Below are positions 330 to 44,196 of a stretch of 44,354 nt of DNA, piece by piece. The DNA comes from Vectrevirus LF31P3. A program made the position numbers and the translations under genes. Each line of letters opens with the position of its first letter. The stretch's first letter is position 1. Below the pieces are notes generated by a model. It did no database searches. It was not told the DNA's origin and saw only the letters and a program-made list of their open reading frames with translations. The DNA lies in the sequence record OZ035776.1, one strand, 5' to 3'.

Positions 330-2227
330 TGGCTAAGGCAAGAGAATCACAAGCGGAGGCTCTTGCCAGATGGGAGATGCTACAGGAGTTACAGCAGACC
401 TTTCCTTACACAGCGGAAGGTTTGCTTCTCTTTGCAGATACAGTTATTCATAACTTAATTGCAGGCAACCCTCATCTGATTCGTATGCAGGCGGATATCT
501 TGAAGTTCCTATTTTACGGACACAAGTACCGCCTCATCGAAGCGCCTCGTGGTATCGCTAAGACAACACTATCAGCAATCTATACGGTATTCCGTATTAT
601 TCATGAACCGCATAAGCGTATCATGGTTGTGTCCCAAAACGCCAAGCGAGCAGAGGAAATCGCAGGTTGGGTAGTTAAAATCTTCCGTGGCTTAGACTTT
701 CTTGAGTTTATGCTGCCGGATATCTACGCTGGGGACCGTGCATCCGTTAAGGCGTTTGAGATTCATTACACCCTACGTGGCAGTGATAAGTCTCCTTCTG
801 TATCATGTTACTCAATCGAAGCAGGTATGCAGGGTGCTCGTGCTGATATTATTCTAGCGGATGACGTAGAGTCGATGCAGAATGCTCGTACGGCAGCGGG
901 CCGTGCCTTGCTTGAGGAACTGACTAAGGAGTTTGAATCTATCAACCAGTTTGGGGATATCATTTACCTTGGTACACCTCAGAACGTAAACTCTATCTAC
1001 AACAACCTACCTGCTCGTGGTTACTCTGTTCGTATCTGGACTGCGCGTTACCCTTCAGTAGAGCAAGAGCAATGTTATGGCGACTTCCTTGCACCTATGA
1101 TTGTTCAAGATATGAAGGACAACCCAGCACTTCGCTCAGGGTACGGGTTGGATGGTAATAGTGGTGCACCTTGTGCCCCTGAAATGTATGATGATGAAGT
1201 CCTGATTGAGAAGGAAATCTCTCAGGGTGCTGCTAAGTTCCAGCTTCAGTTCATGCTTAACACTCGCATGATGGATGCTGACAGATACCCATTACGCCTG
1301 AACAATCTAATCTTCACCTCGTTTGGTACAGAGGAAGTCCCTGTGATGCCTACGTGGAGTAATGATTCCATAAACATCATTGGTGATGCACCTAAGTATG
1401 GTAACAAGCCTACGGATTTCATGTACAGACCTGTAGCTCGCCCATACGAATGGGGTGCTGTCTCCCGCAAGATTATGTATATTGACCCTGCGGGTGGTGG
1501 TAAGAACGGAGATGAGACGGGTGTAGCCATCGTATTCCTGCACGGCACATTCATTTATGTGTATCAGTGCTTTGGTGTACCTGGCGGATACCGAGAGTCG
1601 TCCCTGAATCGCATTGTGCAGGCCGCAAAGCAGGCGGGTGTTAAAGAGGTATTCATTGAGAAGAACTTTGGTCATGGCGCGTTTGAGGCGGTAATTAAGC
1701 CGTACTTTGAACGAGAGTGGCCTGTAACTCTGGAAGAGGATTACGCCACCGGACAGAAAGAGTTGCGTATCATTGAGACGCTGGAGCCGCTCATGGCAGC
1801 CCATAGGCTTATCTTCAATGCAGAGATGGTGAAGTCAGACTTTGAGTCGGTACAGCACTATCCGCTTGAACTACGCATGTCCTACAGTCTTTTCAATCAA
1901 ATGTCGAACATAACGATTGAGAAGAACAGCCTCCGGCATGATGACCGCCTAGACGCCCTGTATGGCGCTATACGGCAATTAACTTCTCAGATAGACTATG
2001 ACGAGGTTACACGGATTAATCGCCTCAGAGCGCAGGAGATGCGCGATTACATCCATGCTATGAACACACCTCATCTACGCAGGGCAATGCTATATGGAGA
2101 TTACGGTACTGAGAGAAGAGTGACCAACACTTCCGTAGCGATGCAGCAGCGAGTTTACGGGCAGAACTACCGAAATAAATCGGCAAGCAGAAATACACTT
2201 TCTGCAAGAATTTCAAGGACTTATTAA
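329..2227 (+). CDS. terminase large subunit (T7 gp19-like)
   Basis: About 630 aa; Walker A-like PRGIAKTT; ATG at 329 preceded by aaggagg (the ORF track begins 3 nt earlier at TTG 326); typical position and size. Confidence 0.9.
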   Translation: MAKARESQAEALARWEMLQELQQTFPYTAEGLLLFADTVIHNLIAGNPHLIRMQADILKFLFYGHKYRLIEAPRGIAKTTLSAIYTVFRIIHEPHKRIMVVSQNAKRAEEIAGWVVKIFRGLDFLEFMLPDIYAGDRASVKAFEIHYTLRGSDKSPSVSCYSIEAGMQGARADIILADDVESMQNARTAAGRALLEELTKEFESINQFGDIIYLGTPQNVNSIYNNLPARGYSVRIWTARYPSVEQEQCYGDFLAPMIVQDMKDNPALRSGYGLDGNSGAPCAPEMYDDEVLIEKEISQGAAKFQLQFMLNTRMMDADRYPLRLNNLIFTSFGTEEVPVMPTWSNDSINIIGDAPKYGNKPTDFMYRPVARPYEWGAVSRKIMYIDPAGGGKNGDETGVAIVFLHGTFIYVYQCFGVPGGYRESSLNRIVQAAKQAGVKEVFIEKNFGHGAFEAVIKPYFEREWPVTLEEDYATGQKELRIIETLEPLMAAHRLIFNAEMVKSDFESVQHYPLELRMSYSLFNQMSNITIEKNSLRHDDRLDALYGAIRQLTSQIDYDEVTRINRLRAQEMRDYIHAMNTPHLRRAMLYGDYGTERRVTNTSVAMQQRVYGQNYRNKSASRNTLSARISRTY

Positions 2228-2248
2228 TTACTGGACACTATAGAAGGG
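2226..2248 (+). promoter_or_regulatory. phage RNAP promoter (aattactggacactatagaaggg), +1 G at 2243
   Basis: Match to the recurring 23-bp motif with SP6-type core GACACTATAGAAG; directly after terminase stop (T7 phiOR-like position). Confidence 0.75.
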
Positions 2249-2383
2249 AGGCCCAGATAATAAGATAAATAATAGGTAATATATAGGTTAACCTAGGTTA
2301 TATAGGTATGCCTTAGTATGGGTGTACTCCTGTACACCCTATTCCTTACTACCTTACTATATTTACATAATAGGAGAGAGACA

Positions 2384-3576: not shown

Positions 3577-3790
3577 GTTTCTAGAAGTGCTGGCAGGTCT
3601 TATTGGCCTGCTTGTCTCTGCTAAGAAGAAACAAGAAGAGAAGGAGGCACAAAGTGAAGCGAATCATGTTAGTGACAATCCTGCTGATTGGTTCGCTGAC
3701 CACTTCCGGGTGTCAGCAGGCGTTACCAGAGAAAGCAATGGTGAAACCTCTGAGGCCGACGCTGACGGCAGTTTACGAGGTAGACGATAA
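3569..3790 (+). CDS. putative i-spanin (Rz-like)
   Basis: N-terminal transmembrane segment then charged region; GTG start overlapping upstream stop (coupling); contains an overlapping +1-frame lipoprotein gene. Confidence 0.5.
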   Translation: MNKFLEVLAGLIGLLVSAKKKQEEKEAQSEANHVSDNPADWFADHFRVSAGVTRESNGETSEADADGSLRGRR

Positions 3791-3863
3791 AGTCTGCTTC
3801 AGTAAGCCTGATGCTACAAAATTAGGTTTGTATATTCTTTCGCTAGAACGCGGATATAATTAA
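3654..3863 (+). CDS. putative o-spanin (Rz1-like outer-membrane lipoprotein)
   Basis: Overlaps the Rz-like gene in another frame; signal peptide with lipobox LTTSGC; GTG start 6 nt after aaggagg (ATG alternative at 3666). Confidence 0.55.
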   Translation: MKRIMLVTILLIGSLTTSGCQQALPEKAMVKPLRPTLTAVYEVDDKVCFSKPDATKLGLYILSLERGYN

Positions 3864-3892
3864 TACATAGCTTTATATATCAGTGTCTTACG

Positions 3893-3915
3893 ATTTACTG
3901 GACACTATAGAAGAG
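3893..3915 (+). promoter_or_regulatory. phage RNAP promoter (atttactggacactatagaagag), +1 G at 3910
   Basis: Full match to the most common promoter variant; upstream of the tailspike genes. Confidence 0.8.
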
Positions 3916-3994
3916 GTAAGATAGCGCCGTTCTTTTGAGCGGCCTATTACTAGCCAATCTTCATGGTGAGGGTTGGAAAGTAATAGGAGGTTTA

Positions 3995-5887
3995 ATGGCA
4001 AGATTAACTCGCCCTGTTAGTGTATTTAATAGTCTGATGGATATTACTTACCCATGCTCCACTGATGGTGGTAAAGCGGAACTACTACAGGTTATACCCG
4101 GACGTATGTCTGGTGGTGGTATCCTACTTTGGGACGCCAGTATGCCTCAGTCCAATCATAATGGTATTACCATCCTCAGCCCTGAAGCTAAATGGGATGG
4201 TACTCTAGAAGGTTTTAAGGCCTATAGGGAAAGTGGAGGGACTGGCAATGGTTGCTGGGTTCGACCACGCAAAGGTACTGATCTGATGGCATCTTGGGCT
4301 GGTGTTGACACAGACGGGGACTGGATTGCGGATGAGCCACTTATGGCGCTGTGTCAGATTGCACATACACAACGTCGTAATATACGCATAGACTCTGGTG
4401 CTGTCATTCGTTGCGGTTTCACAACTCCGATTTCTCAGCAAGACAAGCACAACATTCTATCTCAAACATCTTTTGTATTACGTGGTTTAAAGAACTTCTC
4501 CATATATGCTGAGCAAGATGCAGAGATAACCACAGACCACCCTGTACATCGTGAGCGTACAGTATTCTTCTTGGACGGTTGCGATAAGGTTACAATTTCT
4601 GGTCTTAAGTTTAATTCTGATTTCAGCGATTATTCTTTCGAACCTAATAGTCCCTATGAGCACCATATCAATGAACACTGGTTAGGTGTAGTTGCAGAGG
4701 CTTGTGGTACTGTTGAGGTTCGCAGATGTAGGTTCAATGCACCTCAGTTTGCTGTAAAGGCCGACTGTTTTAATAGAACAGACGGTAGGTGGAATGACAC
4801 AGTTGCAGTAAAAGATTGTTTCTTCCAGTATGCTACAAACTATTGCTTTTTATCACGTAAGTTACGACATTACATCTTCTCTGATAATGAAGTAAGATTT
4901 AATGGACGTAAGTGGCATACATATGGAGAGGCTTGTGCCCCTACTACCTATACTGAGAATCAGATTATCACTCGTAACCGTTTCATAGATCAGATTGCTG
5001 GTCAAAGCTGTATAACTCCTGGTTCTTATGCTAAGCAAGTACTTATTTCAGATAACTTCTGTCAACGTAGTAATGGTATCTTTGTTGAGATAGGCAGTGC
5101 TAGTAATATTAATATTCTTAACAACGTCTCCAAATCTACAGGTGAACGCATCGTCCACGGAAGTGATAAGTATGCAGGAACTACACACATCCTTCTAGTA
5201 TCTGGGGCAGTTGATGATGAACCTGCTGGTGGGCTAAGTAATATCTTGATTCAAGGTAATAACTTCCAAGGCGGTGGTTATGCTTTACAAGAGTACAATA
5301 CAGGCATTCCTATTCGTCGCGGGTTGGATATTCTTAATAACCACCTTGTAGACTGTATTCCACCAGCCTGTACTAACCAATCCTTTAAGTATATTAGGGT
5401 AGAAGGTAACTACATCCAAGCACCGGATGATTACCCAGATATGACTATTGGAGGTCAACACTCTATTATCAAGGATAATGTCCTTATCGGTGTGCGATTG
5501 AGGGCTAGAGATTTAGGTTATACTGTTGTAGGGTTAAAAGTAATAGGTAATACTTTTACTGCAAATAGTGTAGCATCTAAGTTCCCTGCACTGATAGACT
5601 ACACTGATCTAGAAGATCTTGAAGCTTATGACAACGCAGCAGGTATTCAGGCATCTTATGATAGCTTTATAGTAGCACCTGATAACTGTAATAAAATTAG
5701 CTTTATGAAAGTCGGTATGGTTGAAGGTTTTACACAGACACCAGCAGTGGTTTATGGTAGTAAGTTGCAAGGCCAGAAGGCAGGTGCGATTGTTGGCAAT
5801 AGTGCACCTGGGTCTGTACATGGTTGTGCTGCATTCGTGAGTACTTCTAGTGGTGGTTGGGGTTTTATAAACTACGTTCCCGCATAA
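3995..5887 (+). CDS. tailspike protein 1 (probable polysaccharide depolymerase, beta-helix type)
   Basis: 630 aa after terminase/lysis genes as in SP6-like phages; ATG at 3995 preceded by aggagg; Asn/Gly/Ser-rich repetitive sequence consistent with a parallel beta-helix. No named catalytic motif recognised. Confidence 0.55.
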   Translation: MARLTRPVSVFNSLMDITYPCSTDGGKAELLQVIPGRMSGGGILLWDASMPQSNHNGITILSPEAKWDGTLEGFKAYRESGGTGNGCWVRPRKGTDLMASWAGVDTDGDWIADEPLMALCQIAHTQRRNIRIDSGAVIRCGFTTPISQQDKHNILSQTSFVLRGLKNFSIYAEQDAEITTDHPVHRERTVFFLDGCDKVTISGLKFNSDFSDYSFEPNSPYEHHINEHWLGVVAEACGTVEVRRCRFNAPQFAVKADCFNRTDGRWNDTVAVKDCFFQYATNYCFLSRKLRHYIFSDNEVRFNGRKWHTYGEACAPTTYTENQIITRNRFIDQIAGQSCITPGSYAKQVLISDNFCQRSNGIFVEIGSASNINILNNVSKSTGERIVHGSDKYAGTTHILLVSGAVDDEPAGGLSNILIQGNNFQGGGYALQEYNTGIPIRRGLDILNNHLVDCIPPACTNQSFKYIRVEGNYIQAPDDYPDMTIGGQHSIIKDNVLIGVRLRARDLGYTVVGLKVIGNTFTANSVASKFPALIDYTDLEDLEAYDNAAGIQASYDSFIVAPDNCNKISFMKVGMVEGFTQTPAVVYGSKLQGQKAGAIVGNSAPGSVHGCAAFVSTSSGGWGFINYVPA

Positions 5888-5893
5888 TCACAA

Positions 5894-5916
5894 GGCAGTG
5901 CGTAAGCACTGCTTTT
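5894..5916 (+). terminator. hairpin with GNRA loop (GTAA) followed by TTTT between the two tailspike genes
   Basis: 8-bp stem, loop gtaa, then tttt; possible attenuator. Confidence 0.45.
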
Positions 5917-5972
5917 CACGTAACTTTTCTTAAAGGTTATCATGGTGGTAGCCTTTCAGAAAAGGAGGTTAC

Positions 5973-8156
5973 ATGCTTCAAAGATTAGGGGCAATGTTTG
6001 TTCGGTACAAAAATAAAGTAGGTAATGCTATCGAGCGTACACTACAAAGTAAATTACAGGATGTAGTAAGTGTAAAGGATTATGGCGCTATTGGTGATGG
6101 AGTATATCGTTCACTTGGTGCTAAATTTACCACGTTAAGTATGGCACAAGTAGTATACCCGCATGCGGAAAGTTTAACTCAATCGCAAGATTGGGCGGCT
6201 ATTCAGGCTGCACTTAATTCTCACTCAAAAGTGTACATTCCAGCAGGTAAGTACATGCTATCTGATACCATTGAGATGCGCGGCGGTCAAACTCTGCAAG
6301 GTGACGGTATTGATTCTTGGGTTGCAGGTTATGCTGGGTTTGTAAAAGATAATCAAGGCACTCACCTCATAATGGTGGGAGAGGGAAATAAGAAGTATAC
6401 ATTAGATCATGTATCTAACTTCGATGTAGAAGGTGGTGTCATAGACAACCCAGCTAAGGGTGACGCTTATACTGCCACTGCACCTTCCCCTAATTACTCA
6501 TTTACTGACTTCACTAATGCTAACGCCTCTGGTGCACAACGTGCTACATTGAAACATTTCAGTGTAGCATTACGTTGCACAGGTCACGGTGGTGTTTATC
6601 TTCGTGACTTCCGTATTGTGCCTAATCACAGAGGGCAAGAAGGTTATAAGGATGAGTTGTCAACTGCATTAGGGGACGCATGGGATGTAGGTATTTGGCT
6701 GGAGAATACATCTGACTCAGTGTTATCTTCTGTGCAAGCAGTAGGTTACTGGCGCATTGCAGGTGTTATGAAGACTTGTATACCACAAGAGGGTTCCTTT
6801 GTTGGTGGAGATCGTGATAGGGTATACAATTGCACATTACAAGGTTATCGTGGCTTCTTAGCACGTTCGCATGATACTTACCAAGTAGAAGAAGTATCAG
6901 GTAACACTGTATCGATTAAGTGGTCTGCATCTCACACTTTCGAACCTTCTGGTAAAGTTCGTATCCAAGGGAAAGACCGTAGTTATACTAGCCTGTCTGT
7001 ATCTGGTGACAAATTAGTTTTCAATGGTATTGACGATGTATCAGGTATTAATACCAATAGCTATGTGAGAGTTTCAGGGTCTTCATTCGGAATGTCTGCT
7101 ACTCAACTAAATAACACATACATCGCTGCATTAAACCATCATGCTCGCTTGCCAGCAACCTCTAACCTTTTAGATAATGGGTTTGTTACTTCGGCAGCTT
7201 GCTATGAAGTTGCAGGTGAACCAATTCGTGCCATAAAATTATCTAACTGTACTGTCATTACTTGGGATGACATCTTAGGTATGACTGGTGGTATTCGGGA
7301 CTTCCAGACGACAGATACTTACTTCGAGTCTCAGCCTTTCCGTACTTCTGTGCAAGGCTTGGCAAGCACCACACAACCTGCTGGTTCTCGCATGATTGCA
7401 CTTCGTGGACGTCAAGGTTCTAAAACTACAGGCTATCAAGCTATCGGTTGTACTTATGGGCCAGGTGTAGACCTAAGCCCTCGTTATGAAAGCGATGTAT
7501 CTCGTTACACAACTTCCGGTGGTATGTTCAATCCAAGAGAAGATTTGAACACAACTAAGCAGTTACCAATGAGGCAAGACGCTACTGAGCTATCTTCTAC
7601 TTCTGACTTATTCCTTACACATGCTGCAGGTGGGAAGGCCTATGTTGGCGCTACCTCTGGTGATGCAACGCTTCAATCTAGAACTGGATCATTGAATATC
7701 CAATCAGGACTTCGTGTACGCATTGGTGGCACTGATGGTAGTGGTTGGTACATTGCTGACAGTGCTAAGTTGACACCTACTGCTGACAATGCAAGGGCTT
7801 GTGGACAGCCTAATGGACGATGGACTGTTGTCTATGCTGTTAATGGTACAATCCAGACTTCTGATGGTAGATTCAAGGAAATCCTTGAGATTGAACAGGC
7901 AGAACTTGATGCTGGTCTTGAATTATCAGCAAACCTAATTAAGTATCGGTGGAATGGGGAAGATAAAATTCACTTTGGTTGCATAGCACAAGAAGTGATG
8001 TTAATACTGGAGAAACATGGCCTAGACCCATTACAATATGATATGGTTCAGTATGATGAGGAGGCAGACATCTTTGGGGTAAACTATGCTGAACTCAACA
8101 GCTTCTGTATTGCAGCATTATCGAGGAAGTTAAATGCCATTAATCAGATCAGTTAA
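5973..8156 (+). CDS. tailspike protein 2 with C-terminal intramolecular-chaperone (peptidase S74-like) domain
   Basis: N-terminal VKDYGAIGDG motif (pectate-lyase/beta-helix tailspike signature); C-terminal SDGRFKE ... GCIAQEV resembles the autoproteolytic chaperone domain of endosialidase-type spikes; aaggagg before ATG. Confidence 0.75.
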   Translation: MLQRLGAMFVRYKNKVGNAIERTLQSKLQDVVSVKDYGAIGDGVYRSLGAKFTTLSMAQVVYPHAESLTQSQDWAAIQAALNSHSKVYIPAGKYMLSDTIEMRGGQTLQGDGIDSWVAGYAGFVKDNQGTHLIMVGEGNKKYTLDHVSNFDVEGGVIDNPAKGDAYTATAPSPNYSFTDFTNANASGAQRATLKHFSVALRCTGHGGVYLRDFRIVPNHRGQEGYKDELSTALGDAWDVGIWLENTSDSVLSSVQAVGYWRIAGVMKTCIPQEGSFVGGDRDRVYNCTLQGYRGFLARSHDTYQVEEVSGNTVSIKWSASHTFEPSGKVRIQGKDRSYTSLSVSGDKLVFNGIDDVSGINTNSYVRVSGSSFGMSATQLNNTYIAALNHHARLPATSNLLDNGFVTSAACYEVAGEPIRAIKLSNCTVITWDDILGMTGGIRDFQTTDTYFESQPFRTSVQGLASTTQPAGSRMIALRGRQGSKTTGYQAIGCTYGPGVDLSPRYESDVSRYTTSGGMFNPREDLNTTKQLPMRQDATELSSTSDLFLTHAAGGKAYVGATSGDATLQSRTGSLNIQSGLRVRIGGTDGSGWYIADSAKLTPTADNARACGQPNGRWTVVYAVNGTIQTSDGRFKEILEIEQAELDAGLELSANLIKYRWNGEDKIHFGCIAQEVMLILEKHGLDPLQYDMVQYDEEADIFGVNYAELNSFCIAALSRKLNAINQIS

Positions 8157-8280
8157 GCAAAGTGCTGTACGCCAGAACACAGAAGAGCTTATTCAATCAG
8201 GACGTGACCCTAAGCAGGCTTATGCCATTGCCAAGGATATACAACGTCGTACCTTGAAGAAACCTTCTGCATCTTCTGCG
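8134..8280 (+). CDS. small basic ORF (48 aa), hypothetical
   Basis: gagg near ATG, overlaps tailspike 2 stop; weak evidence only. Confidence 0.25.
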
Positions 8281-9250
8281 TAAGCAGATTAATATCTTAG
8301 TGTACACAAGGGCAGACTTATGCTAGCTCACAGCACACCTATGAGTGCCGCTCTGGAGTCTATGACTTGTTCCCTGACTATCTAGGTTTGCTCTTAGTGT
8401 ATTCCAAAGGAGGTAACATGCAAGAGGAGAATTGGGATGTGTAATGTTGGATATGGAGAAGGTTGAACCTTAGTGTTGTACAAGGATTAACCAAAGTCAA
8501 AATTTTGATATAGGCGTGTGTCAGCTCTCTCGCCCTCGCCCTCGCCGGGTTGCCCCCATATGGGGTCGGTCGGCGGTTGACCTAGGAATTGGGCTGGGCG
8601 GGTCCGTCTTCAACCTGCTGCCGCAGGAAGCTCGACGGGTGGGCGAGGGCTTGCCTTGTACTCGCTTAGTGGTACACAAGGAGAGCGCCTAGGAAGCGCT
8701 AGGGCGCGCCTTAGTATTAGACAAGGTGATTGCCTTAGTTCAACCGCTTAGGGCTTACACGGGCCGTTTTAGGGCCACTCCTGAGCGTTTGACAGGGTGT
8801 GAGGGTGTGGGCTATCTGTTTGTTTCGTCGCTGGCGCTCCTCACTTCGTTTCGCTAGCGCTCCACTCACAAGCCTGACGTGTACCTTAGTTACTACCTTA
8901 TGCTATTACTTGATGGATAGCTTAGGTTAAACTTAGTGGACTACCTTAGTTAAAGCCTTAGTGCTTATCTTAGTAATAGCTTAGTAGTGTACCTTAGTAA
9001 GTCTTAGTGTCTTCTCTTAGTGATTGCACATGCAAGCATGTAAGATGCCATTAGGTCGCGGTCGGTAGACCGCTAAAGAGAGAGAATAGTAATAAGATGC
9101 AGTAGGAGGGACACCAGAAACCTAGCCAACCTAGCCTATCCTAGCTCTGTATCTATTGCTTTTCCTTAGTCTCACATGTTAGACAACCTAGGTTTACCTT
9201 AGTAGTTGTGACATGTATCACATAAATAATCTATCTTAGTGAAACTTAGT
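8280..9250. repeat. terminal-region short-repeat arrays (CTTAGT core, about 20 copies; densest 8880..9030)
   Basis: Repeated (c)cttagt(g/a) units in an ORF-free region between the last late gene and the first early promoter; analogous to repeat arrays near T7-group genome ends. Confidence 0.6.
8526..8650. repeat. GC-rich inverted-repeat element
   Basis: cgccctcgccctcgcc (8531..8546) is mirrored by gggcgagggc (8641..8650) about 100 nt away; internal palindrome ccccatatgggg; markedly more GC-rich than surrounding sequence. Confidence 0.5.
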
Positions 9251-9251
9251 G

Positions 9252-9280
9252 TTGACACCGACAATCAACAGGTATACATT
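9252..9280 (+). promoter_or_regulatory. host sigma70-type early promoter (TTGACA-N17-TACATT)
   Basis: Perfect -35 hexamer, 17-nt spacer, -10-like TACATT; upstream of first early ORFs. Confidence 0.55.
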
Positions 9281-9429
9281 AGCAATCACTGAGATGGACC
9301 TAGCAAGTTGTCTCAGGTTATAAGCAGGAGAATTGATGCGTAAGCCATAGCTAGTGGATGCAGTCGCATGAAGGCTTGAGTAAGGGGCCGTTTAATACCT
9401 TCTTCCTCTGGAGACAACGCTTATAACAC

Positions 9430-9445
9430 CGCTCTTTAACAATTT
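9430..9445 (+). promoter_or_regulatory. boxA-like antitermination element 1 (cgctctttaacaattt)
   Basis: Identical to the rrn-type boxA core GCTCTTTAACAATTT; in early leader. Confidence 0.6.
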
Positions 9446-9501
9446 GCTTAGTGTAACCTATGTATGCCGTGGTTAATTACTTATTGAATGAGGAATTAAC
9501 T

Positions 9502-9597
9502 ATGAATTACGAAGAAATGTACGAAGTTTACTTTAACTCGACTGATGAGGGCGAAGAAGTCTTGTCTTATGCTGAGTTTGTGGAGGCTTTATCATGA
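9502..9597 (+). CDS. small acidic early ORF (31 aa)
   Basis: gagga before ATG; ATGA overlap with next ORF. Confidence 0.3.
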   Translation: MNYEEMYEVYFNSTDEGEEVLSYAEFVEALS

Positions 9598-9772: not shown

Positions 9773-9982
<210 letters not shown>

Positions 9983-9987
9983 AAATA

Positions 9988-10212
9988 ATGTATCAACATG
10001 AGGTATTCTTTGAATCAGCTAGCGAAGCTATTCGCTTCCGTGATGATATGATGCAAGCTGGTGTAGGCGTTGATGTGTATCACTATTTGATAGATTACGA
10101 CACTGAATATCACCGAGTTACCTTAGTATCTGAGTATGACAACCAAGTCGTTACTGAGTATCTAGGCAGTGAAGATTACGATTACGATGAAGTAATCACG
10201 ACAAATCTCTAA
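9988..10212 (+). CDS. small acidic early protein (74 aa, D/E/Y-rich)
   Basis: ATG at 9988; intact copy of the duplicated unit. The track ORF 9790..10212 would prepend a polyproline stretch translated from the C tract. Confidence 0.5.
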   Translation: MYQHEVFFESASEAIRFRDDMMQAGVGVDVYHYLIDYDTEYHRVTLVSEYDNQVVTEYLGSEDYDYDEVITTNL

Positions 10213-15095: not shown

Positions 15096-15118
15096 TGTGA
15101 GACTTATTTACCGGACAC
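15096..15118 (+). promoter_or_regulatory. phage RNAP promoter (atttaccggacactataggatag), +1 G at 15113
   Basis: CCGG variant of the promoter motif; first of two tandem promoters between RNAP and gene 1.1-like ORF. Confidence 0.7.
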
Positions 15119-15269
15119 TATAGGATAGCCGTCGGAGACGGGAAAGAAAGGGAAGATAAAGGATATAAAGGAAGTAATAGGTATTAAAGGTTATATAGGT
15201 TTACCTAGGAATACCTATTACCTTCTTCCTTCCTCTTATTTCTACTTAGAGGAAGGGCAGACCTAAGTT

Positions 15270-15470: not shown

Positions 15471-17459
15471 ATGGCTATTATTCAGAATGTACCGTGTCCT
15501 GCCTGTCAAAAGAATGGACATGATATTACTGGTAACCATCTTATGATATTTGAGGATGGCGCTGGTTACTGTAACCGTGGTCACTTCCATGATAACGGTA
15601 AACCTTATTACCACAAGCCGGAAGGTGGCATCGAGATAACCGAGTTACCTATTACTGGCAATATCAAATATACACCTTCTCAATTCAAAGAAATGGAGAA
15701 GGAAGGGAAGATAAGTGACCCTAAGCTACGCGCCATCGCACTTGGTGGTATGCGTATGAAAGACCGTTGGGAGGTTATGAATGAGCAAGAAAGGGCAGAC
15801 CAAGAAGCAGAGTGGAAACTTGATGTTGAATGGTTCCTCACGCTTAAGCGTAAGAACCTTGTATCCCGTCACATTCGAGGTGACATCGCAGCAATGTACG
15901 ATGTGCGCGTTGGACACGATGAAGAGGGAAGAGTCAACCGTCACTATTATCCACGATATGAAAAGGGTGTGCTTGTTGGAGCAAAATGCCGGACGTTGCC
16001 GAAGGATTTTAAGTTCGGACACCTAGGTAAACTCTTTGGTATGCAAGATCTTTTCGGTATGAACACTTTGTCTCACGTGTTAGACAAGGGGAGACGAAAG
16101 GATTGCTTGCTTATTGTAGGCGGTGAACTTGATGCACTAGCAGCGCAGCAGATGCTCCTTGATTCTGCCAAAGGTACTAAGTGGGAGGGTCAGCCATACC
16201 ATGTATGGTCTGTCAACAAAGGCGAGTCTTGCCTTGAAGAGATAGTGCAGAACCGTGAGCATATCGCCCAATTCAAGAAGATTATTTGGGGCTTCGATGG
16301 GGATGAGGTAGGGCAGAAGCAGAACCAGCAAGCGGCTCGCCTGTTTCCTGGCAAATCCTATATCCTTGAGTACCCTTCTGGTTGCAAAGATGCCAACAAG
16401 GCATTGATGGCTGGCAAGGCTAAAGAGTTTGTTGATGCATGGTTTAATGCCAAGTCATCTGATGAAGTCTTTGGTAGCCAGATTAAATCTATCGCATCTC
16501 AAAGGGATAAGCTCAAGGCTGCACGTCCAGAGCAAGGACTATCATGGCCTTGGCCTAAGCTGAACAAGGTAACGCTAGGTATTCGTAAGAACCAACTTAT
16601 CATTGTAGGTGCAGGATCTGGTGTAGGTAAGACTGAGTTCCTTCGTGAAGTAGTTAAGCACCTCATTGAAGAACACGGTGAATCTGTAGGCATCATTTCT
16701 ACAGAAGACCCGATGGTCAAGGTTTCCCGTGCTTTTATCGGCAAGTGGATTGATAAGCGTATTGAGTTACCGCCAACCAACGACCCGAAAGAAGATGGAT
16801 ACCGTGAGGTGTTCGACTACACCGAGGAAGAAGCTAACGCCGCCATTGATTATGTAGCTGATACAGGTAAGCTGTTTGTAGCTGACCTAGAGGGTGACTA
16901 TTCGATGGAAAAGGTAGAGCAAACTTGCCTAGAGTTTGAGGCTATGGGCATTTCTAATATCATCATTGATAACTTAACGGGGATTAAATTAGATGAGCGT
17001 GCTTTTGGTGGGAAGGTTGGTGCACTTGATGAATGCGTCAAGCGGATTGGTACTATCAAAGACCGACACCCGGTTACTATATTCCTTGTATCACACCTTA
17101 CACGTCCTCCGGCAAACCGTACCCAACACGAAGAAGGTGGCGAGGTTATCCTTTCTGACTTCCGAGGCTCAGGCGCTATCGGATTCTGGGCATCTTACGC
17201 CTTGGGGATTGAGCGTAATACAAGAGCTGAAACGCTTGACGAAAGGACTACCACGTACATCTCATGTGTCAAAGACCGCGACCAAGGTATCTACACTGGA
17301 ACCAAGGTCATGCTTAAGGGTGACATTCAAACCGGACGTTTAATGGAACCACAAGCCCGTACTAAGTCATTTGATACAGGTGAAGCAAGGCAACAAGAAG
17401 TACCAGATTTACCGGACACTATAGAAGAGACTAACTTCGATGAAGAAAGTGAGTTCTGA
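15471..17459 (+). CDS. DNA primase/helicase (T7 gp4-like)
   Basis: N-terminal zinc ribbon CPACQ...CNRGH; Walker A GAGSGVGKT; 662 aa. Confidence 0.95.
   Translation: MAIIQNVPCPACQKNGHDITGNHLMIFEDGAGYCNRGHFHDNGKPYYHKPEGGIEITELPITGNIKYTPSQFKEMEKEGKISDPKLRAIALGGMRMKDRWEVMNEQERADQEAEWKLDVEWFLTLKRKNLVSRHIRGDIAAMYDVRVGHDEEGRVNRHYYPRYEKGVLVGAKCRTLPKDFKFGHLGKLFGMQDLFGMNTLSHVLDKGRRKDCLLIVGGELDALAAQQMLLDSAKGTKWEGQPYHVWSVNKGESCLEEIVQNREHIAQFKKIIWGFDGDEVGQKQNQQAARLFPGKSYILEYPSGCKDANKALMAGKAKEFVDAWFNAKSSDEVFGSQIKSIASQRDKLKAARPEQGLSWPWPKLNKVTLGIRKNQLIIVGAGSGVGKTEFLREVVKHLIEEHGESVGIISTEDPMVKVSRAFIGKWIDKRIELPPTNDPKEDGYREVFDYTEEEANAAIDYVADTGKLFVADLEGDYSMEKVEQTCLEFEAMGISNIIIDNLTGIKLDERAFGGKVGALDECVKRIGTIKDRHPVTIFLVSHLTRPPANRTQHEEGGEVILSDFRGSGAIGFWASYALGIERNTRAETLDERTTTYISCVKDRDQGIYTGTKVMLKGDIQTGRLMEPQARTKSFDTGEARQQEVPDLPDTIEETNFDEESEF
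17407..17429 (+). promoter_or_regulatory. phage RNAP promoter (atttaccggacactatagaagag), +1 G at 17424
   Basis: Lies inside the 3' end of the primase/helicase gene. Confidence 0.7.
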
Positions 17460-21747: not shown

Positions 21748-21769
21748 TTTACTGGACACTATAGAAGGA
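21747..21769 (+). promoter_or_regulatory. phage RNAP promoter (atttactggacactatagaagga), +1 G at 21764
   Basis: Full motif match. Confidence 0.8.
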
Positions 21770-21832
21770 AGCCTAGCCAATCTAGGTTTATAAGGTAGTA
21801 TAGGTAATTAAGTAAATATAGGAGATATAAAC

Positions 21833-22210
21833 ATGTCTATGGTAACTACTCTGGTATTTGTAGCTCAATACTTTCGTGGTCTGGCTAATAAGTTCAAGTC
21901 CAAGGCTATCAAAGCTATTGAGTCTCGCATCGAGGCAGTACAGGCAGAGCAAGTTAAAGTTGAAGAACATCGTAGTTCTCAAATGATTGACTGCCATAAC
22001 CGCTACTATGAATCTCGTGATGACCTTAATGCACGCCAAGTCAAAGAGGTTGAAGAGATGCTGGCACGTCACCAGCAAGAGCGCGACAGCCTGAAAGCTG
22101 AATTTGAAGAGAACAAGGCATCCATCGCCCTTGTACATCAAGCCGCATCTGACAGCCTGAAGAAAGAGATTGTTATGCTGGAAATTGAGTTAGACAACCT
22201 GACCAAATAA
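21833..22210 (+). CDS. hypothetical coiled-coil protein (125 aa)
   Basis: aggag before ATG. Confidence 0.55.
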   Translation: MSMVTTLVFVAQYFRGLANKFKSKAIKAIESRIEAVQAEQVKVEEHRSSQMIDCHNRYYESRDDLNARQVKEVEEMLARHQQERDSLKAEFEENKASIALVHQAASDSLKKEIVMLEIELDNLTK

Positions 22211-22231
22211 TTACTGGACACTATAGAACAA
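22209..22231 (+). promoter_or_regulatory. phage RNAP promoter (aattactggacactatagaacaa), +1 G at 22226
   Basis: Motif match; overlaps the stop of the preceding gene. Confidence 0.7.
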
Positions 22232-22287
22232 TAGGTCGGCTTAGTTCGGCCTATGATTGTGTAGTGTAACAATAGGAGACTAAATAA

Positions 22288-23354: not shown

Positions 23355-23377
23355 ATTTACTGGACACTATAGAAGAG
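23355..23377 (+). promoter_or_regulatory. phage RNAP promoter (atttactggacactatagaagag), +1 G at 23372
   Basis: Full motif match. Confidence 0.8.
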
Positions 23378-23426
23378 AAGAATTTTAATCGGCGATAATG
23401 CCACAACTAACAAAGGAGAATTTAAT

Positions 23427-25495: not shown

Positions 25496-26495
25496 GCTTC
25501 GCAGCTTGTACAAAGACTCCGAGGTACTTGATGCAATCGAGCAAGCTACCGACGAGAAAGGTAATGTTAATTACAATGAGATGGCACGTGTATTATCGTG
25601 TCACCCTGTGGGTAAGAAGATTACCCGCCAGTTGGCTCGATACTGGCATGGTCAATTCAAGAAGACCAAGAAGAATGGTGATTATTACCAGACCCTTCTG
25701 CAAGAAGATAAGCGTATCAAAGAAGAGCGTAAGCTCAGGACTCCTGACCGCTACGAGGATTTGGCTATTGTACCATTGCCTGACTCGCCTCATCGAAGTG
25801 TACTGGTAATCCCTGATACTCATGCACCTTATGAGCATCCAGATACCTTAGAGTTCCTTGCAGCAGTCGCGGCACGTTACCGTCCAGATACAGTGGTTCA
25901 CTTAGGAGATGAGGCAGATAAACACGCCCTCTCCTTCCATGACTCTGACCCGAATCTGGATAGTGCTGGCATGGAGCTAGAGAAGGCTCGTGTCTTCATG
26001 CACAAGTTGCACAAGATGTTCCCTGTGATGCGCCTGTGTCATTCTAATCACGGCTCTATGCACTTCCGTAAGGCAAGCGCCAAGGGTATTCCAGTGCAAT
26101 ATCTTCGCACCTACCGTGAAGTCTTCTTCCCAAATGGAGGTGGCGACCAGTGGGATTGGCAACATACGCACGTCCTTGAGTTGCCGAATGGTGAACAAGT
26201 GGCATTCAAGCATCAACCTGCTGGCTCTGTCCTAGCAGATGCAGCGCATGAGCGTATGAACCTTGTGTGTGGTCACTTGCACGGTAAGATGTCTGTGGAG
26301 TACGCACGTAATACACATGAACAGTATTGGGCTGTGCAAGGTGGCTGCTTAATTGATGAGTCATCCCGTGCATTTGCCTATGGTCGTGAGTCTAAATACA
26401 AGCCAGCATTAGGTTGTGTGGTCATTCTGGAGGGTGTGCCTCACATCGTCCCGATGCAAACCAATAGCGACAACCGTTGGATTGGCAAGATTTAG
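25488..26495 (+). CDS. calcineurin-like metallophosphoesterase
   Basis: Motifs IPDTHAPY (DxH), LGDEAD (GDxxD), CHSNHG (NH); TTG start 6 nt after aaggagg preferred over in-frame ATG at 25464 which lacks an SD. Confidence 0.7.
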   Translation: MGKLRSLYKDSEVLDAIEQATDEKGNVNYNEMARVLSCHPVGKKITRQLARYWHGQFKKTKKNGDYYQTLLQEDKRIKEERKLRTPDRYEDLAIVPLPDSPHRSVLVIPDTHAPYEHPDTLEFLAAVAARYRPDTVVHLGDEADKHALSFHDSDPNLDSAGMELEKARVFMHKLHKMFPVMRLCHSNHGSMHFRKASAKGIPVQYLRTYREVFFPNGGGDQWDWQHTHVLELPNGEQVAFKHQPAGSVLADAAHERMNLVCGHLHGKMSVEYARNTHEQYWAVQGGCLIDESSRAFAYGRESKYKPALGCVVILEGVPHIVPMQTNSDNRWIGKI

Positions 26496-26512
26496 TTGAC
26501 ACTATAGAACAA
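26490..26512 (+). promoter_or_regulatory. phage RNAP promoter (atttagttgacactatagaacaa), +1 G at 26507
   Basis: Closest of all to the canonical SP6 promoter as recalled (atttagGtgacactatag). Confidence 0.7.
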
Positions 26513-26595
26513 AGGGCTAGGTAAGACTTTATCGGCTGGCGTATCCAAATGATATTGCACTAGCCCTTGATTGTATAGTGAATGGAGGATTCAAT

Positions 26596-31713: not shown

Positions 31714-31763
31714 AGAAAAGTTCTCCCTAGTTATCAATTTGATTTATAAGGAGATTATAATAC

Positions 31764-42900: not shown

Positions 42901-43234
42901 TAAAGGGTTGGCCTTTGGTGCAATGGGTATGATGAGTACAACTGCTGTATTTAGTCTAGGTGGAGATTTCTTAGGTGGCCTAGGTGTTCTGCCTTCTGAG
43001 TTAGTACAATCCCGTTATGAGGCTGGCTTTCAGACTAAGGGTTTGATAGACCAAATACCACTAGTAGGTGTTGGTCAAGATGCATATCGTTTAGCAGATT
43101 CTATAACTAAATACGCAGAGGGTGATACAGAAGGTGTAGATGTGGCACGTAGGGCTTTACGCTTAGTGCCTCTAGCTAATGTAATAGGAATCCAGAACGC
43201 ATTGCGTTATGGCTTAGATGAACTGGAGGATTAA
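39926..43234 (+). CDS. large internal virion protein (gp16-like core/ejection protein)
   Basis: About 1100 aa, Gly/Ala-rich hydrophobic stretch near N-terminus; ggagg before ATG at 39926. Confidence 0.75.
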   Translation: MEQDIKTNWAGYVQSTPEPFSIEAAPVSAPTIRQRNELQEQVLEAKADADILGAVGAAFQNEWLAFGGKRWYDRATADFTPQPDFEIQPEQREALRFKYGTDMMQTITEGVRSEDELNFRIQNADEDLERNKRIAQAGWVGSVATTGAAVLDPVGWVASIPTGGAAKVGLVGRAVRGAIAAGVSNAAIESVLVQGDMTRDLDDIMVALGSGMAMGGVIGAVARGRATKLSEQGDDRAASIVRSADAGDRYVRAVADDSIGAMRVKGEEVLTEGAFDISSKGEDLLKTLQREGNAIDMTPRRWAGTLSALGTVVHSSQDASVRGLGARLFESPQGLGMQKASASLMQNTNLNRLKSADMNRFNDGFDLWLKENNINPVAGHTNSHYVQQYNEKVWEAVRIGMDESTPKSIRMAAEGQQAMYREALALRQRSGEAGFEKVKADDKYMPDIFDSMKARRQFSMHDKEDIIELFSRAYQNGSRKVPKEVADDIARAQVNRVADATLTGQLSFEKAMSGQTKAEYEALMRKAGFSDEEIEKMVEALDSKETRDNISNRAKMSLGLDVTQEYNGIRIRDFMNTNVEELTDNYMKEAAGGAALARQGFSTYQAALNAIDLVERNARNAAKDTKAHAQFEAESAKIRQSEPDYKKAQEKIEELKKRLKLKEKDEAAGLAIDEEIRQMREGLRLIMGKSIDSNPQDLSTKMLRRGRDITGVLRLGQMGFAQLGELANFMGEFGIAATTMALGKQFRFTSKALRNGDGFFRDKNLAEVERMVGYIGEDNWLTTKGARPDEFGDVTTVRGMMAHFDQSMNSIRRAQTNLSLFRMAQGSLERMTNRQIALSFIDHLEGKKIIPQKKLEELGLTQEFMTNLQKHYDANSKGSGLLGFDTMPYAMGETLANAIRRKSGLIIQRNFIGDEGIWMNKALGKTFAQLKSFSLVSGEKQFGRGIRHDKIGLAKKTAFGFALGSMVYAAKAYVNSIGREDQDEYLEEKLSPKGLAFGAMGMMSTTAVFSLGGDFLGGLGVLPSELVQSRYEAGFQTKGLIDQIPLVGVGQDAYRLADSITKYAEGDTEGVDVARRALRLVPLANVIGIQNALRYGLDELED

Positions 43235-44196
43235 TGAGTTATACTTTCACAGAACATATAGCCAACGGTACGCAAGTAACCTATCCCTTTAGCTTTGCTG
43301 GTAGGGATAAAGGTTATCTTCGTGCCTCAGATGTGATAGTGGAGTCTCTTCAAGGTAACACTTGGATTGAGGTTACATCTGGCTGGCAACTAACTGGCAC
43401 GCACCAGATTACTTTTGATGTAGCACCAGTTGCAGGTTTGAAGTTCCGTATTCGAAGGGAAGTACAAAAGGAGTATCCATACGCTGAGTTTGACCGTGGT
43501 GTTACCTTGGATATGAAGTCTTTAAATGGTTCTTTCATTCATATACTGGAGATTACACAGGAGTTACTTGACGGGTTTTATCCAGAAGGATACTTCATTA
43601 AACAGAATGTAAGCTGGGGCGGCAATAAGATTACTGATTTGGCTGATGGCACAAATCCTGGAGATGCAGTAAATAAAGGGCAGCTTGATGCCATCGACAA
43701 GAAGCATACAGATTGGAACGCCAAACAGGACATTGAGATTGCTGGCCTTAAGGCTGGTATGACTTCTGATATTGCGCACAGAACTGTTCCTTGGTACACG
43801 ATAGCCAAAGGTGGTGAGATTTCCGTAAAACCACCTTATGAATTTCAAGATGCACTAGTTTTCCTTAATGGGGTATTGCAGCACCAAATTGTAGGCGCAT
43901 ACTCTATAAGCAACAACACTATCACTTTCGCAGAGCCGCTTGTGGCGGGTACAGAGGTGTATGTGCTGATTGGTAGTCGTGTGGCTACATCTGAACCTAA
44001 TATTCAGTTAGAGTTGAACTTTGACTTAGTAGAAGGTCAACAAGTAGTACAGATTGGCTCTGCATTTAAGTACATTGAGGTCTACCTTGATGGATTATTA
44101 CAACCTAAACTTGCTTATCAGGTAGACGGTGACATTGTTACTTTCTCAGAAAGAGTACCAGAATGCCGGATGACTGCTAAGATTATCACAGCATAA
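43234..44196 (+). CDS. tail fibre-like adaptor protein (T7 gp17 N-terminal-like)
   Basis: 320 aa; size and position fit the adaptor that anchors tailspikes in SP6/K1-5-type phages; TAATG overlap. Confidence 0.65.
   Translation: MSYTFTEHIANGTQVTYPFSFAGRDKGYLRASDVIVESLQGNTWIEVTSGWQLTGTHQITFDVAPVAGLKFRIRREVQKEYPYAEFDRGVTLDMKSLNGSFIHILEITQELLDGFYPEGYFIKQNVSWGGNKITDLADGTNPGDAVNKGQLDAIDKKHTDWNAKQDIEIAGLKAGMTSDIAHRTVPWYTIAKGGEISVKPPYEFQDALVFLNGVLQHQIVGAYSISNNTITFAEPLVAGTEVYVLIGSRVATSEPNIQLELNFDLVEGQQVVQIGSAFKYIEVYLDGLLQPKLAYQVDGDIVTFSERVPECRMTAKIITA

What the first reader, a model, noticed from the sequence alone, without database searches (positions are those of the whole stretch)
5973..8156. Tailspike with C-terminal self-cleaving chaperone domain; two spikes form a host-range module
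Tailspike 2 combines an N-terminal VKDYGAIGDG beta-helix signature with a C-terminal SDGRFKE ... GCIAQEV segment like the intramolecular chaperone of endosialidase-type spikes, with predicted cleavage just before DGRFKE near nt 7860. Tailspike 1 (3995..5887) is a second, unrelated beta-helix-like protein. Both look AT-richer than the core genes by eye, consistent with horizontally exchanged receptor-binding cassettes.
Basis: partly seen in the sequence, partly recalled or inferred. Interest (0 to 1): 0.4.

Follow-up and report, generated by a model that had tools for sequence, protein, structure and literature searches.

The report
K1-5-type phage tailspike pair, self-cleaving chaperone

Summary
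The window is a complete Vectrevirus genome (K1-5/SP6-like podovirus). ORF 5973..8156 (727 aa) occupies the gp47 slot, which holds the endosialidase in K1-5. ORF 3995..5887 (630 aa) occupies the gp46 slot, which holds the K5 lyase.

Spike 2 has three parts:
- a K1-5-type N-terminal docking peptide (MLQRLGAMFVR);
- a pectate-lyase-like beta-helix body (PF12708), whose closest solved relative is the Klebsiella phage Kp7 tail fibre 7Y5S;
- a Peptidase_S74 intramolecular chaperone domain (aa 630-727), scoring above Pfam's gathering cut-off.

The catalytic Ser630/Lys635 dyad, the folding sensor Arg616, Asp605 and Thr629 sit at exactly the spacing seen in T5 pb1. An AlphaFold model of the C-terminus matches only the three solved chaperone domains.

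The expected cut is Thr629|Ser630 (nt 7859/7860).

Cassette exchange is shown directly. Phage T147P1 has the same backbone (97%) and the same spike 1 but a different spike 2. Phage KMB14 has the same spike 2 (99%) paired with a K5 lyase.

The spikes' total GC is modestly low. Their GC3 (31% against 43%) is the lowest among the large genes.

Cleavage, enzyme chemistry and receptor remain untested. This is a new member of a known kind, of low interest.

The parts
3894..3916 (+). SP6/K1-5-type phage RNA polymerase promoter-like site (TTTACTGGACACTATAGAAGAGG) upstream of spike 1. No such site lies between the two spikes, so they are probably co-transcribed.
   Evidence: Pattern search found 9 full-pattern sites of this kind on the + strand of the window (12 CACTATAG core matches in all); sequence read.
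3995..5887 (+). Tailspike 1 (630 aa) in the gp46 slot. Its N-terminal heptapeptide MARLTRP (3995-4015) corresponds to the K1-5 MAKLTKP adaptor-docking peptide. The body is a beta-helix-like receptor-binding module with no S74 domain.
   Evidence: ORF and ribosome-binding site. phrog_24092 tail fibre, E 4.6e-95. Pfam Beta_helix is below threshold, 17.9 bits, but homologues carry PF13229. Their N-termini vary between PF09008, PF18668 and PF03906. 98.5% nt identity to T147P1 and 90% to PSK8. Docking-peptide alignment. No similarity to K5 lyase.
5885..5989 (+). Conserved linker between the cassettes: the spike 1 stop, a hairpin GCAGTGC-GTAA-GCACTGC (5895-5912) followed by TTTT, the spike 2 ribosome-binding site and the first codons of spike 2. 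Probable recombination junction and possible partial terminator.
   Evidence: 91% nt identity to K1-5 across this stretch only, while both flanking bodies are unrelated. The LL11 record annotates a terminator at the equivalent place. The hairpin was seen. The generic scan did not call a + strand terminator because the T run is only 4 long.
5973..8156 (+). Tailspike 2 precursor (727 aa, 78.9 kDa) in the gp47 slot.
   Evidence: ORF. 99% identical to the KMB14 'tail fibers protein' WPK27916. phrog_1171 tail spike, E 6.6e-80. Masses.
5973..6062 (+). N-terminal adaptor-docking region of spike 2 (aa 1-30). It includes the undecapeptide MLQRLGAMFVR, equivalent to K1-5 gp47 MIQRLGSSLVK.
   Evidence: Alignment of gp47-slot proteins from K1-5, LL11, PSK8, T147P1 and KMB14. 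56% identity to K1-5 gp47 over aa 1-43. Peptide definition from PMC6872550.
6066..7742 (+). Beta-helix receptor-binding and presumed depolymerase body (about aa 32-590). It starts with the VKDYGAIGDG motif and contains a predicted beta-rich insertion at about aa 300-370.
   Evidence: PF12708 over aa 32-155. 4RU5/4RU4 sequence hits over aa 23-124. Top Foldseek hits are the LKA1 gp49 and phi297 tailspikes. Profile hit to the Kp7 tail fibre 7Y5S, E 4.9e-60, over nearly the full length. The AF2 model is poor in aa 431-563.
7743..7859 (+). C-terminal stalk preceding the cut site (aa 591-629). It carries Asp605, the folding-sensor Arg616 and Thr629, and is the end of the predicted mature spike.
   Evidence: Aligns to the triple-beta-helix ends of T5 pb1, endoNF and Kp7. 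Residue spacing is identical to T5 pb1 Asp1239/Arg1250/Thr1263. Conservation counts. Pfam End_tail_spike C-terminal piece over aa 596-629, below threshold.
7860..8153 (+). Peptidase_S74 C-terminal intramolecular chaperone domain (aa 630-727, 98 aa, 11.2 kDa, pI 4.4). The catalytic residues are Ser630 (nt 7860-7862) and Lys635 (nt 7875-7877).
   Evidence: PF13884 over aa 630-684, 32.4 bits against a cut-off of 22. PDB hits 4UW8, 7Y5S, 9VVR, 6EU4, 3GW6 and 3GUD. AF2 C-terminal model pLDDT is above 90 over aa 640-727. Foldseek hits only chaperone structures, TMq 0.50-0.64.
8134..8283 (+). gp48 homologue (49 aa). Its start overlaps the last 23 nt of spike 2, and it marks the downstream conserved boundary of the spike 2 cassette.
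   Evidence: Nucleotide identity of 91-94% to K1-5, T147P1 and PSK8 resumes exactly at 8134 (LL11: 92% from 8124). K1-5 gene 48 overlaps gp47 in the same way. Sequence read.
43234..44196 (+). Tailspike adaptor (gp37 homologue, 320 aa) that carries both spikes on the tail.
   Evidence: 99% identical to K1-5 gp37. Phage_T7_tail N-terminal domain PF03906, 27.2 bits against a cut-off of 25.2.

Best explanation
The window is a K1-5-like (Vectrevirus) podovirus genome, and 3995..8156 is its two-tailspike receptor-recognition module. One phage promoter probably drives both genes.

Each spike docks by a short conserved N-terminal peptide onto a separate site of the gp37 adaptor. This gives the virion two independent polysaccharide-recognising spikes. 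The docking mode is inferred from K1-5.

Spike 2 is made as a 78.9-kDa precursor. Its last 98 residues form a Peptidase_S74 intramolecular chaperone. The proposed sequence of events is:
1. Three chaperone domains trimerise and nucleate folding of the upstream C-terminal stalk and beta-helix.
2. Correct folding places Arg616 of a neighbouring chain next to Asp605 and Thr629.
3. Ser630, activated by Lys635, then cleaves the Thr629-Ser630 bond.
4. The 11-kDa chaperone is released. A stable 67.7-kDa mature spike (aa 1-629) remains on the virion.

The beta-helix body most likely binds and depolymerises an E. coli surface polysaccharide, either capsule or O antigen, of unknown type.

The bodies of both spikes are cassettes swapped by recombination in the conserved flanks at 4008, 5885-6037 and 8134.

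Shown here: gene order, domain content, catalytic residues, fold similarity, breakpoints and natural recombinants. Inferred: cleavage itself, trimerisation, enzymatic activity and receptor.
For: Genome identity and synteny with K1-5:
- 71 Vectrevirus-type records cover at least 80% of the backbone at about 94-97% identity.
- The same gene order runs from the lysis genes through spike 1, spike 2 and gp48.
- The adaptor is 99% identical to K1-5 gp37.
- The docking peptides are conserved (with PMC6872550).

S74 chaperone domain:
- Pfam hit above the gathering cut-off.
- Sequence hits to T5 pb1, endoNF CIMCD, Kp7, AS12 gp42 and the chaperone domain 3GUD.
- D605, R616, T629, S630 and K635 have the same spacing as T5 pb1 D1239, R1250, T1263, S1264 and K1269.
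- These residues are conserved in at least 26 of 27 ungapped homologues.
- The C-terminal AF2 model has pLDDT 81.8. Its only significant Foldseek hits are 4UW8, 3GW6 and 3GUD.
- Both K1-5 spikes also carry S74.

Beta-helix body: PF12708, the LKA1 gp49 and phi297 tailspikes as top fold hits, and a full-length 7Y5S profile hit, E 4.9e-60.

Cassette exchange:
- Breakpoints mapped.
- T147P1 has the same backbone and spike 1 but a different spike 2.
- KMB14 has the same spike 2 together with a K5 lyase.
- The spike 2 body plus chaperone also occurs behind P22-type, TSP1/gp66-type and T7-type N-termini.
- GC3 is the lowest among the large genes.
Against: - There is no experimental evidence of processing for this protein or for its 99% homologue in KMB14.
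- The full-length AF2 model is poor (mean pLDDT 59.9; aa 431-563 below 50), so the body fold rests mainly on sequence profiles.
- Only monomers could be modelled, so neither the trimeric geometry nor the inter-chain Arg616 contact was tested.
- No catalytic residues could be assigned in the beta-helix. I did not see an LKA1-type H494/D497/H499 motif when reading the sequence, and I ran no alignment to check it. Lyase, hydrolase and binding-only roles all remain open.
- In one solved homologue (phi29 gp12) the serine was modelled on the mature side, so the exact bond is uncertain by one residue.
- Low total GC is not unique to the spikes.
Confidence: 0.85

Rival explanations
1. The S74-like domain is present but is not cleaved. 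It stays on the mature spike as a permanent C-terminal trimerisation or binding domain.
For: - Cleavage was not observed here.
- The solved Kp7 tail fibre chain 7Y5S (668 aa) still contains its chaperone region, to residue 666, in the deposited sequence. Whether that protein was mutated is unknown to me.
- This chaperone is a short version: 98 aa against 133 aa in T5 pb1.
Against: - Every residue implicated in autoproteolysis is intact and at the canonical spacing.
- The T5 paper reports that an uncleaved chaperone masks the receptor-binding tip.
- The similarly short K1-5 gp47 chaperone (106 aa) belongs to the endosialidase group, for which processing is the accepted mechanism.
Confidence: 0.07
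2. Spike 2 is a binding-only receptor protein without depolymerase activity. Its beta-helix is a scaffold rather than an enzyme.
For: - No catalytic residues could be assigned.
- Similarity to the characterised lyase LKA1 gp49 is strong only for aa 23-124.
- The middle of the model has low confidence.
Against: - The PF12708 pectate-lyase-like domain is present.
- The nearest characterised relatives are polysaccharide-degrading tailspikes: LKA1 gp49, and the Kp7 protein, which PMC12737672 describes as a depolymerase.
- Both spikes in the same slots of K1-5 are enzymes.
Confidence: 0.12
3. The lower GC of the two spike genes does not reflect recent horizontal acquisition. It reflects amino-acid composition, or ordinary within-genome variation of late genes.
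For: - Total GC is only about 1.6-1.9 sd below the mean of the large genes.
- 9-15% of same-size windows in the genome are as AT-rich.
- The nozzle gene (42.2%) and several small genes are as low or lower.
Against: - GC3, which is largely free of amino-acid constraints, is the lowest of all genes of at least 250 aa: 31% against a minimum of 35.5% elsewhere.
- Comparative genomics shows the exchange independently of composition.
Confidence: 0.2

Closest known systems
Coliphage K1-5 dual tailspike system: gp46 K5 lyase, gp47 endosialidase and gp37 adaptor (Scholl et al.; Leiman et al. 2007, as summarised in PMC6872550)
   Same: - Same genus and same gene order.
- The adaptor is 99% identical.
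- The same hepta- and undecapeptide-type docking N-termini are present.
- The same conserved linker lies between the spikes.
- The same gp48 overlap occurs downstream.
- The gp47-slot spike ends in a short S74 chaperone, 98 aa here against 106 aa in K1-5.
   Different: - Both receptor-binding bodies differ. Spike 1 has no similarity to K5 lyase and has no S74 domain.
- Spike 2 has a pectate-lyase-like beta-helix in place of the endosialidase beta-propeller.
- The chaperone domain is only 29% identical to that of K1-5 gp47.
- The receptors are therefore not K1 or K5, and remain unknown.
C-terminal intramolecular chaperone domain, MEROPS/Pfam Peptidase_S74: endoNF of K1F (3GW6), T5 pb1 (4UW8) and the neck-appendage-protein chaperone (3GUD)
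   Same: - Ser-x4-Lys dyad.
- Upstream Thr, Arg (Ser minus 14) and Asp (Ser minus 25).
- The same helix / hairpin / helix / hairpin / long C-terminal helix layout.
- Significant sequence and fold matches.
   Different: - It is shorter than the T5 domain (133 aa).
- Autocleavage and trimer formation were not demonstrated here.
Klebsiella phage Kp7 tail fibre / depolymerase (PDB 7Y5S)
   Same: - Closest solved protein over the full length, with a profile E of 4.9e-60.
- Similar N-terminal peptide, beta-helix body and C-terminal chaperone.
   Different: - By single-sequence search only the N-terminal 40 aa and the C-terminal 110 aa align, so the bodies are divergent.
- The host genus and receptor are different.
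Pseudomonas phage LKA1 gp49 and phi297 tailspikes (4RU4, 4RU5), O-antigen lyases
   Same: - Strong similarity at the start of the beta-helix, aa 23-124, E 1e-18.
- Top Foldseek hits for the full-length model.
- A beta-rich insertion interrupts the helix in both.
   Different: - LKA1 gp49 ends in a discoidin-like domain, not an S74 chaperone.
- I did not recognise the proposed LKA1 catalytic His/Asp/His cluster when reading the sequence. No alignment was run to check it.
Escherichia phage vB-Eco-KMB14 'tail fibers protein' WPK27916 (OR424384)
   Same: 717 of 727 residues identical, in the same slot of the same genus.
   Different: It is paired there with a K5-lyase-type spike 1. The deposited annotation names it only as a tail fibre protein. 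The one paper found that mentions KMB14 in context (PMC12031403) concerns endolysins only.

Membership tests
Peptidase_S74 / C-terminal intramolecular chaperone domain (CIMCD) | Sequence match to the family model above the curated threshold | tested here: met
   PF13884 over aa 630-684, 32.4 bits against a gathering score of 22, E 1.2e-7, covering model positions 1-58 of 58.
Peptidase_S74 / C-terminal intramolecular chaperone domain (CIMCD) | Catalytic Ser-Lys dyad with Ser-x4-Lys spacing at the start of the domain | tested here: met
   Ser630 and Lys635 align to T5 pb1 Ser1264 and Lys1269. Ser and Lys are present in at least 26 of 27 ungapped homologues.
Peptidase_S74 / C-terminal intramolecular chaperone domain (CIMCD) | Upstream folding-sensor Arg, with Asp and Thr forming the oxyanion site, in the preceding stalk | tested here: met
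   Arg616 (Ser minus 14), Asp605 (Ser minus 25) and Thr629 (Ser minus 1) have the same offsets as T5 pb1 Arg1250, Asp1239 and Thr1263, and are conserved. This is sequence-level only. The inter-chain geometry was not modelled.
Peptidase_S74 / C-terminal intramolecular chaperone domain (CIMCD) | CIMCD fold | tested here: met
   In the AF2 model of aa 590-727, residues 640-727 have pLDDT above 90. Its eight best Foldseek PDB hits are all chains of 4UW8, 3GW6 or 3GUD, with TMq 0.50-0.64 and probability 1.00. The next hit has E above 0.1.
Peptidase_S74 / C-terminal intramolecular chaperone domain (CIMCD) | Autoproteolytic release after trimerisation, with the domain absent from the mature virion protein | not testable with these tools
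   This needs SDS-PAGE or mass spectrometry of the expressed protein and of virions, and S630A and K635A mutants.
K1-5/SP6-type adaptor-mounted dual tailspike module | gp37-type adaptor with a T7-tail-fibre-like N-terminal domain and no receptor-binding domain of its own | tested here: met
   ORF 43234..44196 (320 aa) is 99% identical to K1-5 gp37. PF03906 scores above its cut-off.
K1-5/SP6-type adaptor-mounted dual tailspike module | Two adjacent spike genes, each with a short conserved N-terminal docking peptide (MAKLTKP type and MIQRLGSSLVK type) | tested here: met
   MARLTRP is 5 of 7 identical, with two K-to-R changes. MLQRLGAMFVR is 6 of 11 identical. Both were aligned with K1-5, LL11, PSK8 and T147P1. 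Peptide definitions are from PMC6872550.
K1-5/SP6-type adaptor-mounted dual tailspike module | Conserved flanks and linker with unrelated spike bodies (cassette exchange) | tested here: met
   The segments up to 4008, 5885-5989 and from 8134 are conserved with K1-5, while the bodies are unrelated. T147P1 and KMB14 each share one spike with the window.
K1-5/SP6-type adaptor-mounted dual tailspike module | Both spikes physically present on the virion | not testable with these tools
   This needs cryo-EM or virion proteomics.
Beta-helix polysaccharide depolymerase tailspikes (pectate-lyase-like superfamily) | Right-handed parallel beta-helix domain | tested here: met
   PF12708 scores above its cut-off. 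Profile hits include many beta-helix enzymes and tailspikes. Foldseek top hits are 4RU4 and 4RU5. However, the model is poor in its C-terminal half.
Beta-helix polysaccharide depolymerase tailspikes (pectate-lyase-like superfamily) | Identifiable catalytic residues and demonstrated glycan cleavage | tested here: inconclusive
   No catalytic residues could be transferred from LKA1 gp49. I ran no alignment for this, and activity cannot be tested in silico.
Endosialidase (GH58) tailspikes | Beta-propeller sialidase catalytic domain (PF12217) with beta-barrel (PF12195) | tested here: not met
   Spike 2 shows only the last 34 residues of PF12219, below threshold, plus S74. It has no PF12217 or PF12195, whereas K1-5 gp47 has all of these. 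Spike 2 is therefore endosialidase-like only in its chaperone.

The most novel reading that the evidence does not exclude
Spike 2 and its roughly 40%-identical relatives form a family. The relatives occur in a Kayfunavirus (YZ1), in P22-like E. coli prophages and in other Vectreviruses. This family may be an uncharacterised depolymerase that targets an E. coli surface glycan other than the O antigen, for example a capsular K antigen. The hint is that the YZ1-type receptor-binding protein was reported in prophages of strains from several O serogroups (PMC10408124). If so, the enzyme would have a new substrate specificity, with an LKA1 gp49-like helix-plus-insertion architecture coupled to a short S74 chaperone.
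Probability: 0.3. Interest if true: 0.3.

Novelty: new member of a known kind. Interest (0 to 1): 0.15.

Why it matters
The practical value is modest.

- The finding annotates correctly a protein that public records call only 'tail fibers protein' or 'hypothetical protein'.
- It predicts the mature spike (aa 1-629, 67.7 kDa). Anyone expressing this depolymerase for capsule typing or antivirulence work needs that boundary.
- The window, T147P1 and KMB14 form a clean natural example of single-cassette swapping on a 97%-identical backbone. Such cases are useful for training host-range predictors.

It does not change what is understood about tailspike folding or modular exchange.

Tried and rejected
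- **Spike 1 as a K5 lyase variant.** The length is nearly identical to K1-5 gp46 (630 aa against 632). Rejected: there is no similarity beyond the first 7 residues.

- **Spike 2 as an endosialidase.** Rejected: no beta-propeller or beta-barrel domains are present. Only the stalk end and the chaperone are shared with K1-5 gp47.

- **Full-length AF2 model for fold assignment of the body.** The quality was poor (pLDDT 59.9) and the TM-scores are meaningless. I used it only for ranked local hits, and re-modelled the C-terminus alone.

- **First attempt to model the C-terminus.** I re-ran it without that row.

- **PDB sequence search for spike 1.** No hits.

- **Literature on KMB14.** Only one endolysin survey; nothing on the spike or its host's capsule.

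- **Generic terminator and sigma-70 promoter scan of 3700-8600.** Counts equalled the shuffled expectation, so they are uninformative. The inter-spike hairpin was not called on the + strand because it is followed by only four T residues.

- **Transferring LKA1 gp49 catalytic residues.** No matching motif was recognised by eye, and I made no alignment.
Full report
**What the window is**

All long ORFs lie on the + strand. The 24.9-kb core (12000-36900) is 94-97% identical to 71 deposited K1-5-like phages of the genus Vectrevirus (Autographiviridae, Molineuxvirinae). The closest is Vectrevirus T147P1, at 97.1% identity over 100% of the query. The window is therefore a circularly permuted, complete K1-5/SP6-like podovirus genome.

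The finding's two ORFs follow the lysis genes and precede a gp48 homologue. This is where K1-5 has gp46 (K5 lyase) and gp47 (K1 endosialidase).

**Observation check**

ORF 5973..8156 (727 aa, ATG) is real and has a strong ribosome-binding site, AAGGAGG.
- VKDYGAIGDG, aa 34-43
- SDGRFKE, aa 630-636
- GCIAQEV, aa 669-675

The Ser630 codon is nt 7860-7862.

Spike 1 starts at ATG 3995. It is preceded by AGGAGG and by an SP6/K1-5-type promoter, TTTACTGGACACTATAGAAGAGG, at 3894-3916. No such promoter lies between the spikes. There is only a conserved hairpin at 5895-5912 followed by TTTT. The two spikes share no sequence similarity.

**Spike 2 anatomy**

Pfam gives two matches above the curated cut-offs:
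- PF12708 (pectate-lyase-like) at aa 32-155
- PF13884 Peptidase_S74 at aa 630-684

Single-sequence PDB searches hit two groups of structures:
- The LKA1 gp49 and phi297 tailspikes, at aa 23-124.
- Proteins with an intramolecular chaperone, at aa 592-700: T5 pb1 (4UW8), Kp7 tail fibre (7Y5S), endoNF CIMCD (3GW6), AS12 gp42 (6EU4) and the neck appendage protein chaperone (3GUD).

A profile built from 38 homologues matches the Kp7 tail fibre 7Y5S over nearly its whole length, E 4.9e-60. Published descriptions treat 7Y5S as a Klebsiella beta-helix depolymerase with an intramolecular chaperone.

**Chaperone domain and cut site**

The T5 pb1 structure paper (PMC4690869) makes these points:
- The scissile bond is Thr1263-Ser1264.
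- Ser1264 is activated by Lys1269.
- Arg1250 of a neighbouring chain sits between Asp1239 and Thr1263 and acts as a folding sensor.
- The serine leaves with the chaperone in T5 and K1F. In phi29 it was modelled on the mature side, with weaker density.

Spike 2 has Asp605, Arg616, Thr629, Ser630 and Lys635 at exactly those offsets. All five are present in at least 26 of 27 ungapped homologues.

The full-length AlphaFold model was poor (pLDDT 59.9). A model of aa 590-727 had pLDDT above 90 for aa 640-727. Its only significant Foldseek PDB hits were 4UW8, 3GW6 and 3GUD, with TMq 0.50-0.64 and probability 1.00. Everything else had E above 0.1.

The predicted products are a 67.7-kDa mature spike (aa 1-629) and an 11.2-kDa acidic chaperone of 98 aa. 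The most likely cut is at nt 7859/7860, one residue upstream of 'just before DGRFKE'.

**The module**

- The adaptor ORF 43234..44196 is 99% identical to K1-5 gp37 and has the T7-tail N-terminal domain.
- Spike 1 begins MARLTRP (K1-5: MAKLTKP).
- Spike 2 begins MLQRLGAMFVR (K1-5: MIQRLGSSLVK).
- These are the docking peptides described for K1-5, K1E and SP6.

**Cassette exchange**

Nucleotide comparison places the breakpoints precisely. Similarity to K1-5 and LL11:
- runs up to 4008, five codons into spike 1;
- reappears at 5885-5989, or up to 6037 in LL11 and T147P1;
- resumes at 8134, the start codon of gp48, which overlaps the last 23 nt of spike 2.

The spike 1 body is shared with T147P1 (98.5%) and PSK8 (90%). 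The spike 2 body is shared only with KMB14 (98.7% nt, 717 of 727 aa). In KMB14 it is paired with a K5-lyase-type spike.

T147P1 has the same backbone and the same spike 1, but a 570-aa beta-helix spike 2 without S74. No record among 50,697 phage genomes has this pair together.

The spike 2 body plus chaperone also occurs, at about 42% identity, behind three other N-termini:
- P22-type head-binding
- TSP1/gp66-type
- T7-type, as in the Kayfunavirus YZ1

Spike 1 homologues show the same variety of N-termini.

S74 presence goes with the cassette, not the slot. Both K1-5 spikes have it. The spike 2 of LL11, T147P1 and PSK8 lacks it. A separate junction at about aa 594 is suggested by NTNC80A, which shares only the stalk plus chaperone, at 71% aa identity.

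**Composition**

- Total GC of the spikes is 42.1% and 42.9%, against 46.5 +/- 2.3% for the other large genes. This is a modest difference, and several backbone genes match it.
- GC3 is 31.5% and 30.9%, against 42.6 +/- 4.7% (minimum 35.5%). This is the lowest among genes of at least 250 aa.

The comparative genomics is the real evidence for exchange.

**What remains unknown**

Autocleavage, trimerisation, enzymatic chemistry and the receptor were not and could not be tested here. No catalytic residues could be transferred from LKA1 gp49. The YZ1-type relative was reported in prophages of several O serogroups. That hints at, but does not show, a non-O-antigen receptor.

**Verdict**

It describes the textbook K1-5-type dual tailspike module and the textbook S74 intramolecular chaperone, in a protein 99% identical to one already deposited. 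It is a new, uncharacterised member of a known kind, and interest is low.

Noticed in passing
window 9886-9982 (within mechanical ORF 9790..10212): A run of about 97 nt of C (93% C) that would encode a poly-proline tract. It is flanked by a diverged direct repeat of the same coding segment of about 85 nt (roughly 9800-9885 and 10012-10097). It looks like a sequencing or assembly artefact joining two copies or variants of an early gene, rather than biology.
   Followed up: partly
window 8892-9021: Degenerate tandem repeats of 23-24 and 48 nt (CTTAGT...-type) in the roughly 1.3-kb non-coding stretch 8300-9590, plus a perfect (CTCGCC)x3 at 8529-8546. This is probably the genome-end or early control region of the permuted K1-5-like genome.
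   Followed up: no
window 8134-8283: The 49-aa gp48 homologue starts 23 nt before the spike 2 stop, in another reading frame. Its ribosome-binding site (GAGGAAG, 8122-8128) and start codon are embedded in the last codons of the chaperone domain. The downstream recombination boundary of the cassette coincides exactly with this start codon.
   Followed up: partly
window 7752-8153 (spike 2 aa 594-727) against phage NTNC80A OP018999: Only the stalk plus chaperone is shared with another phage's spike, which has a different body and is annotated 'cell wall surface anchor family protein'. Identity is 71% aa and 86% nt. This suggests a second, internal exchange junction just upstream of the chaperone.
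   Followed up: no
window 2227-2250, 3894-3917, 15107-15130, 17408-17431, 21748-21771, 22210-22233, 23356-23379, 26491-26514 and 31692-31715: Nine + strand matches to an SP6/K1-5-type phage promoter pattern (..ACTGGACACTATAGAAG..). They give a provisional transcription map of the genome.
   Followed up: no
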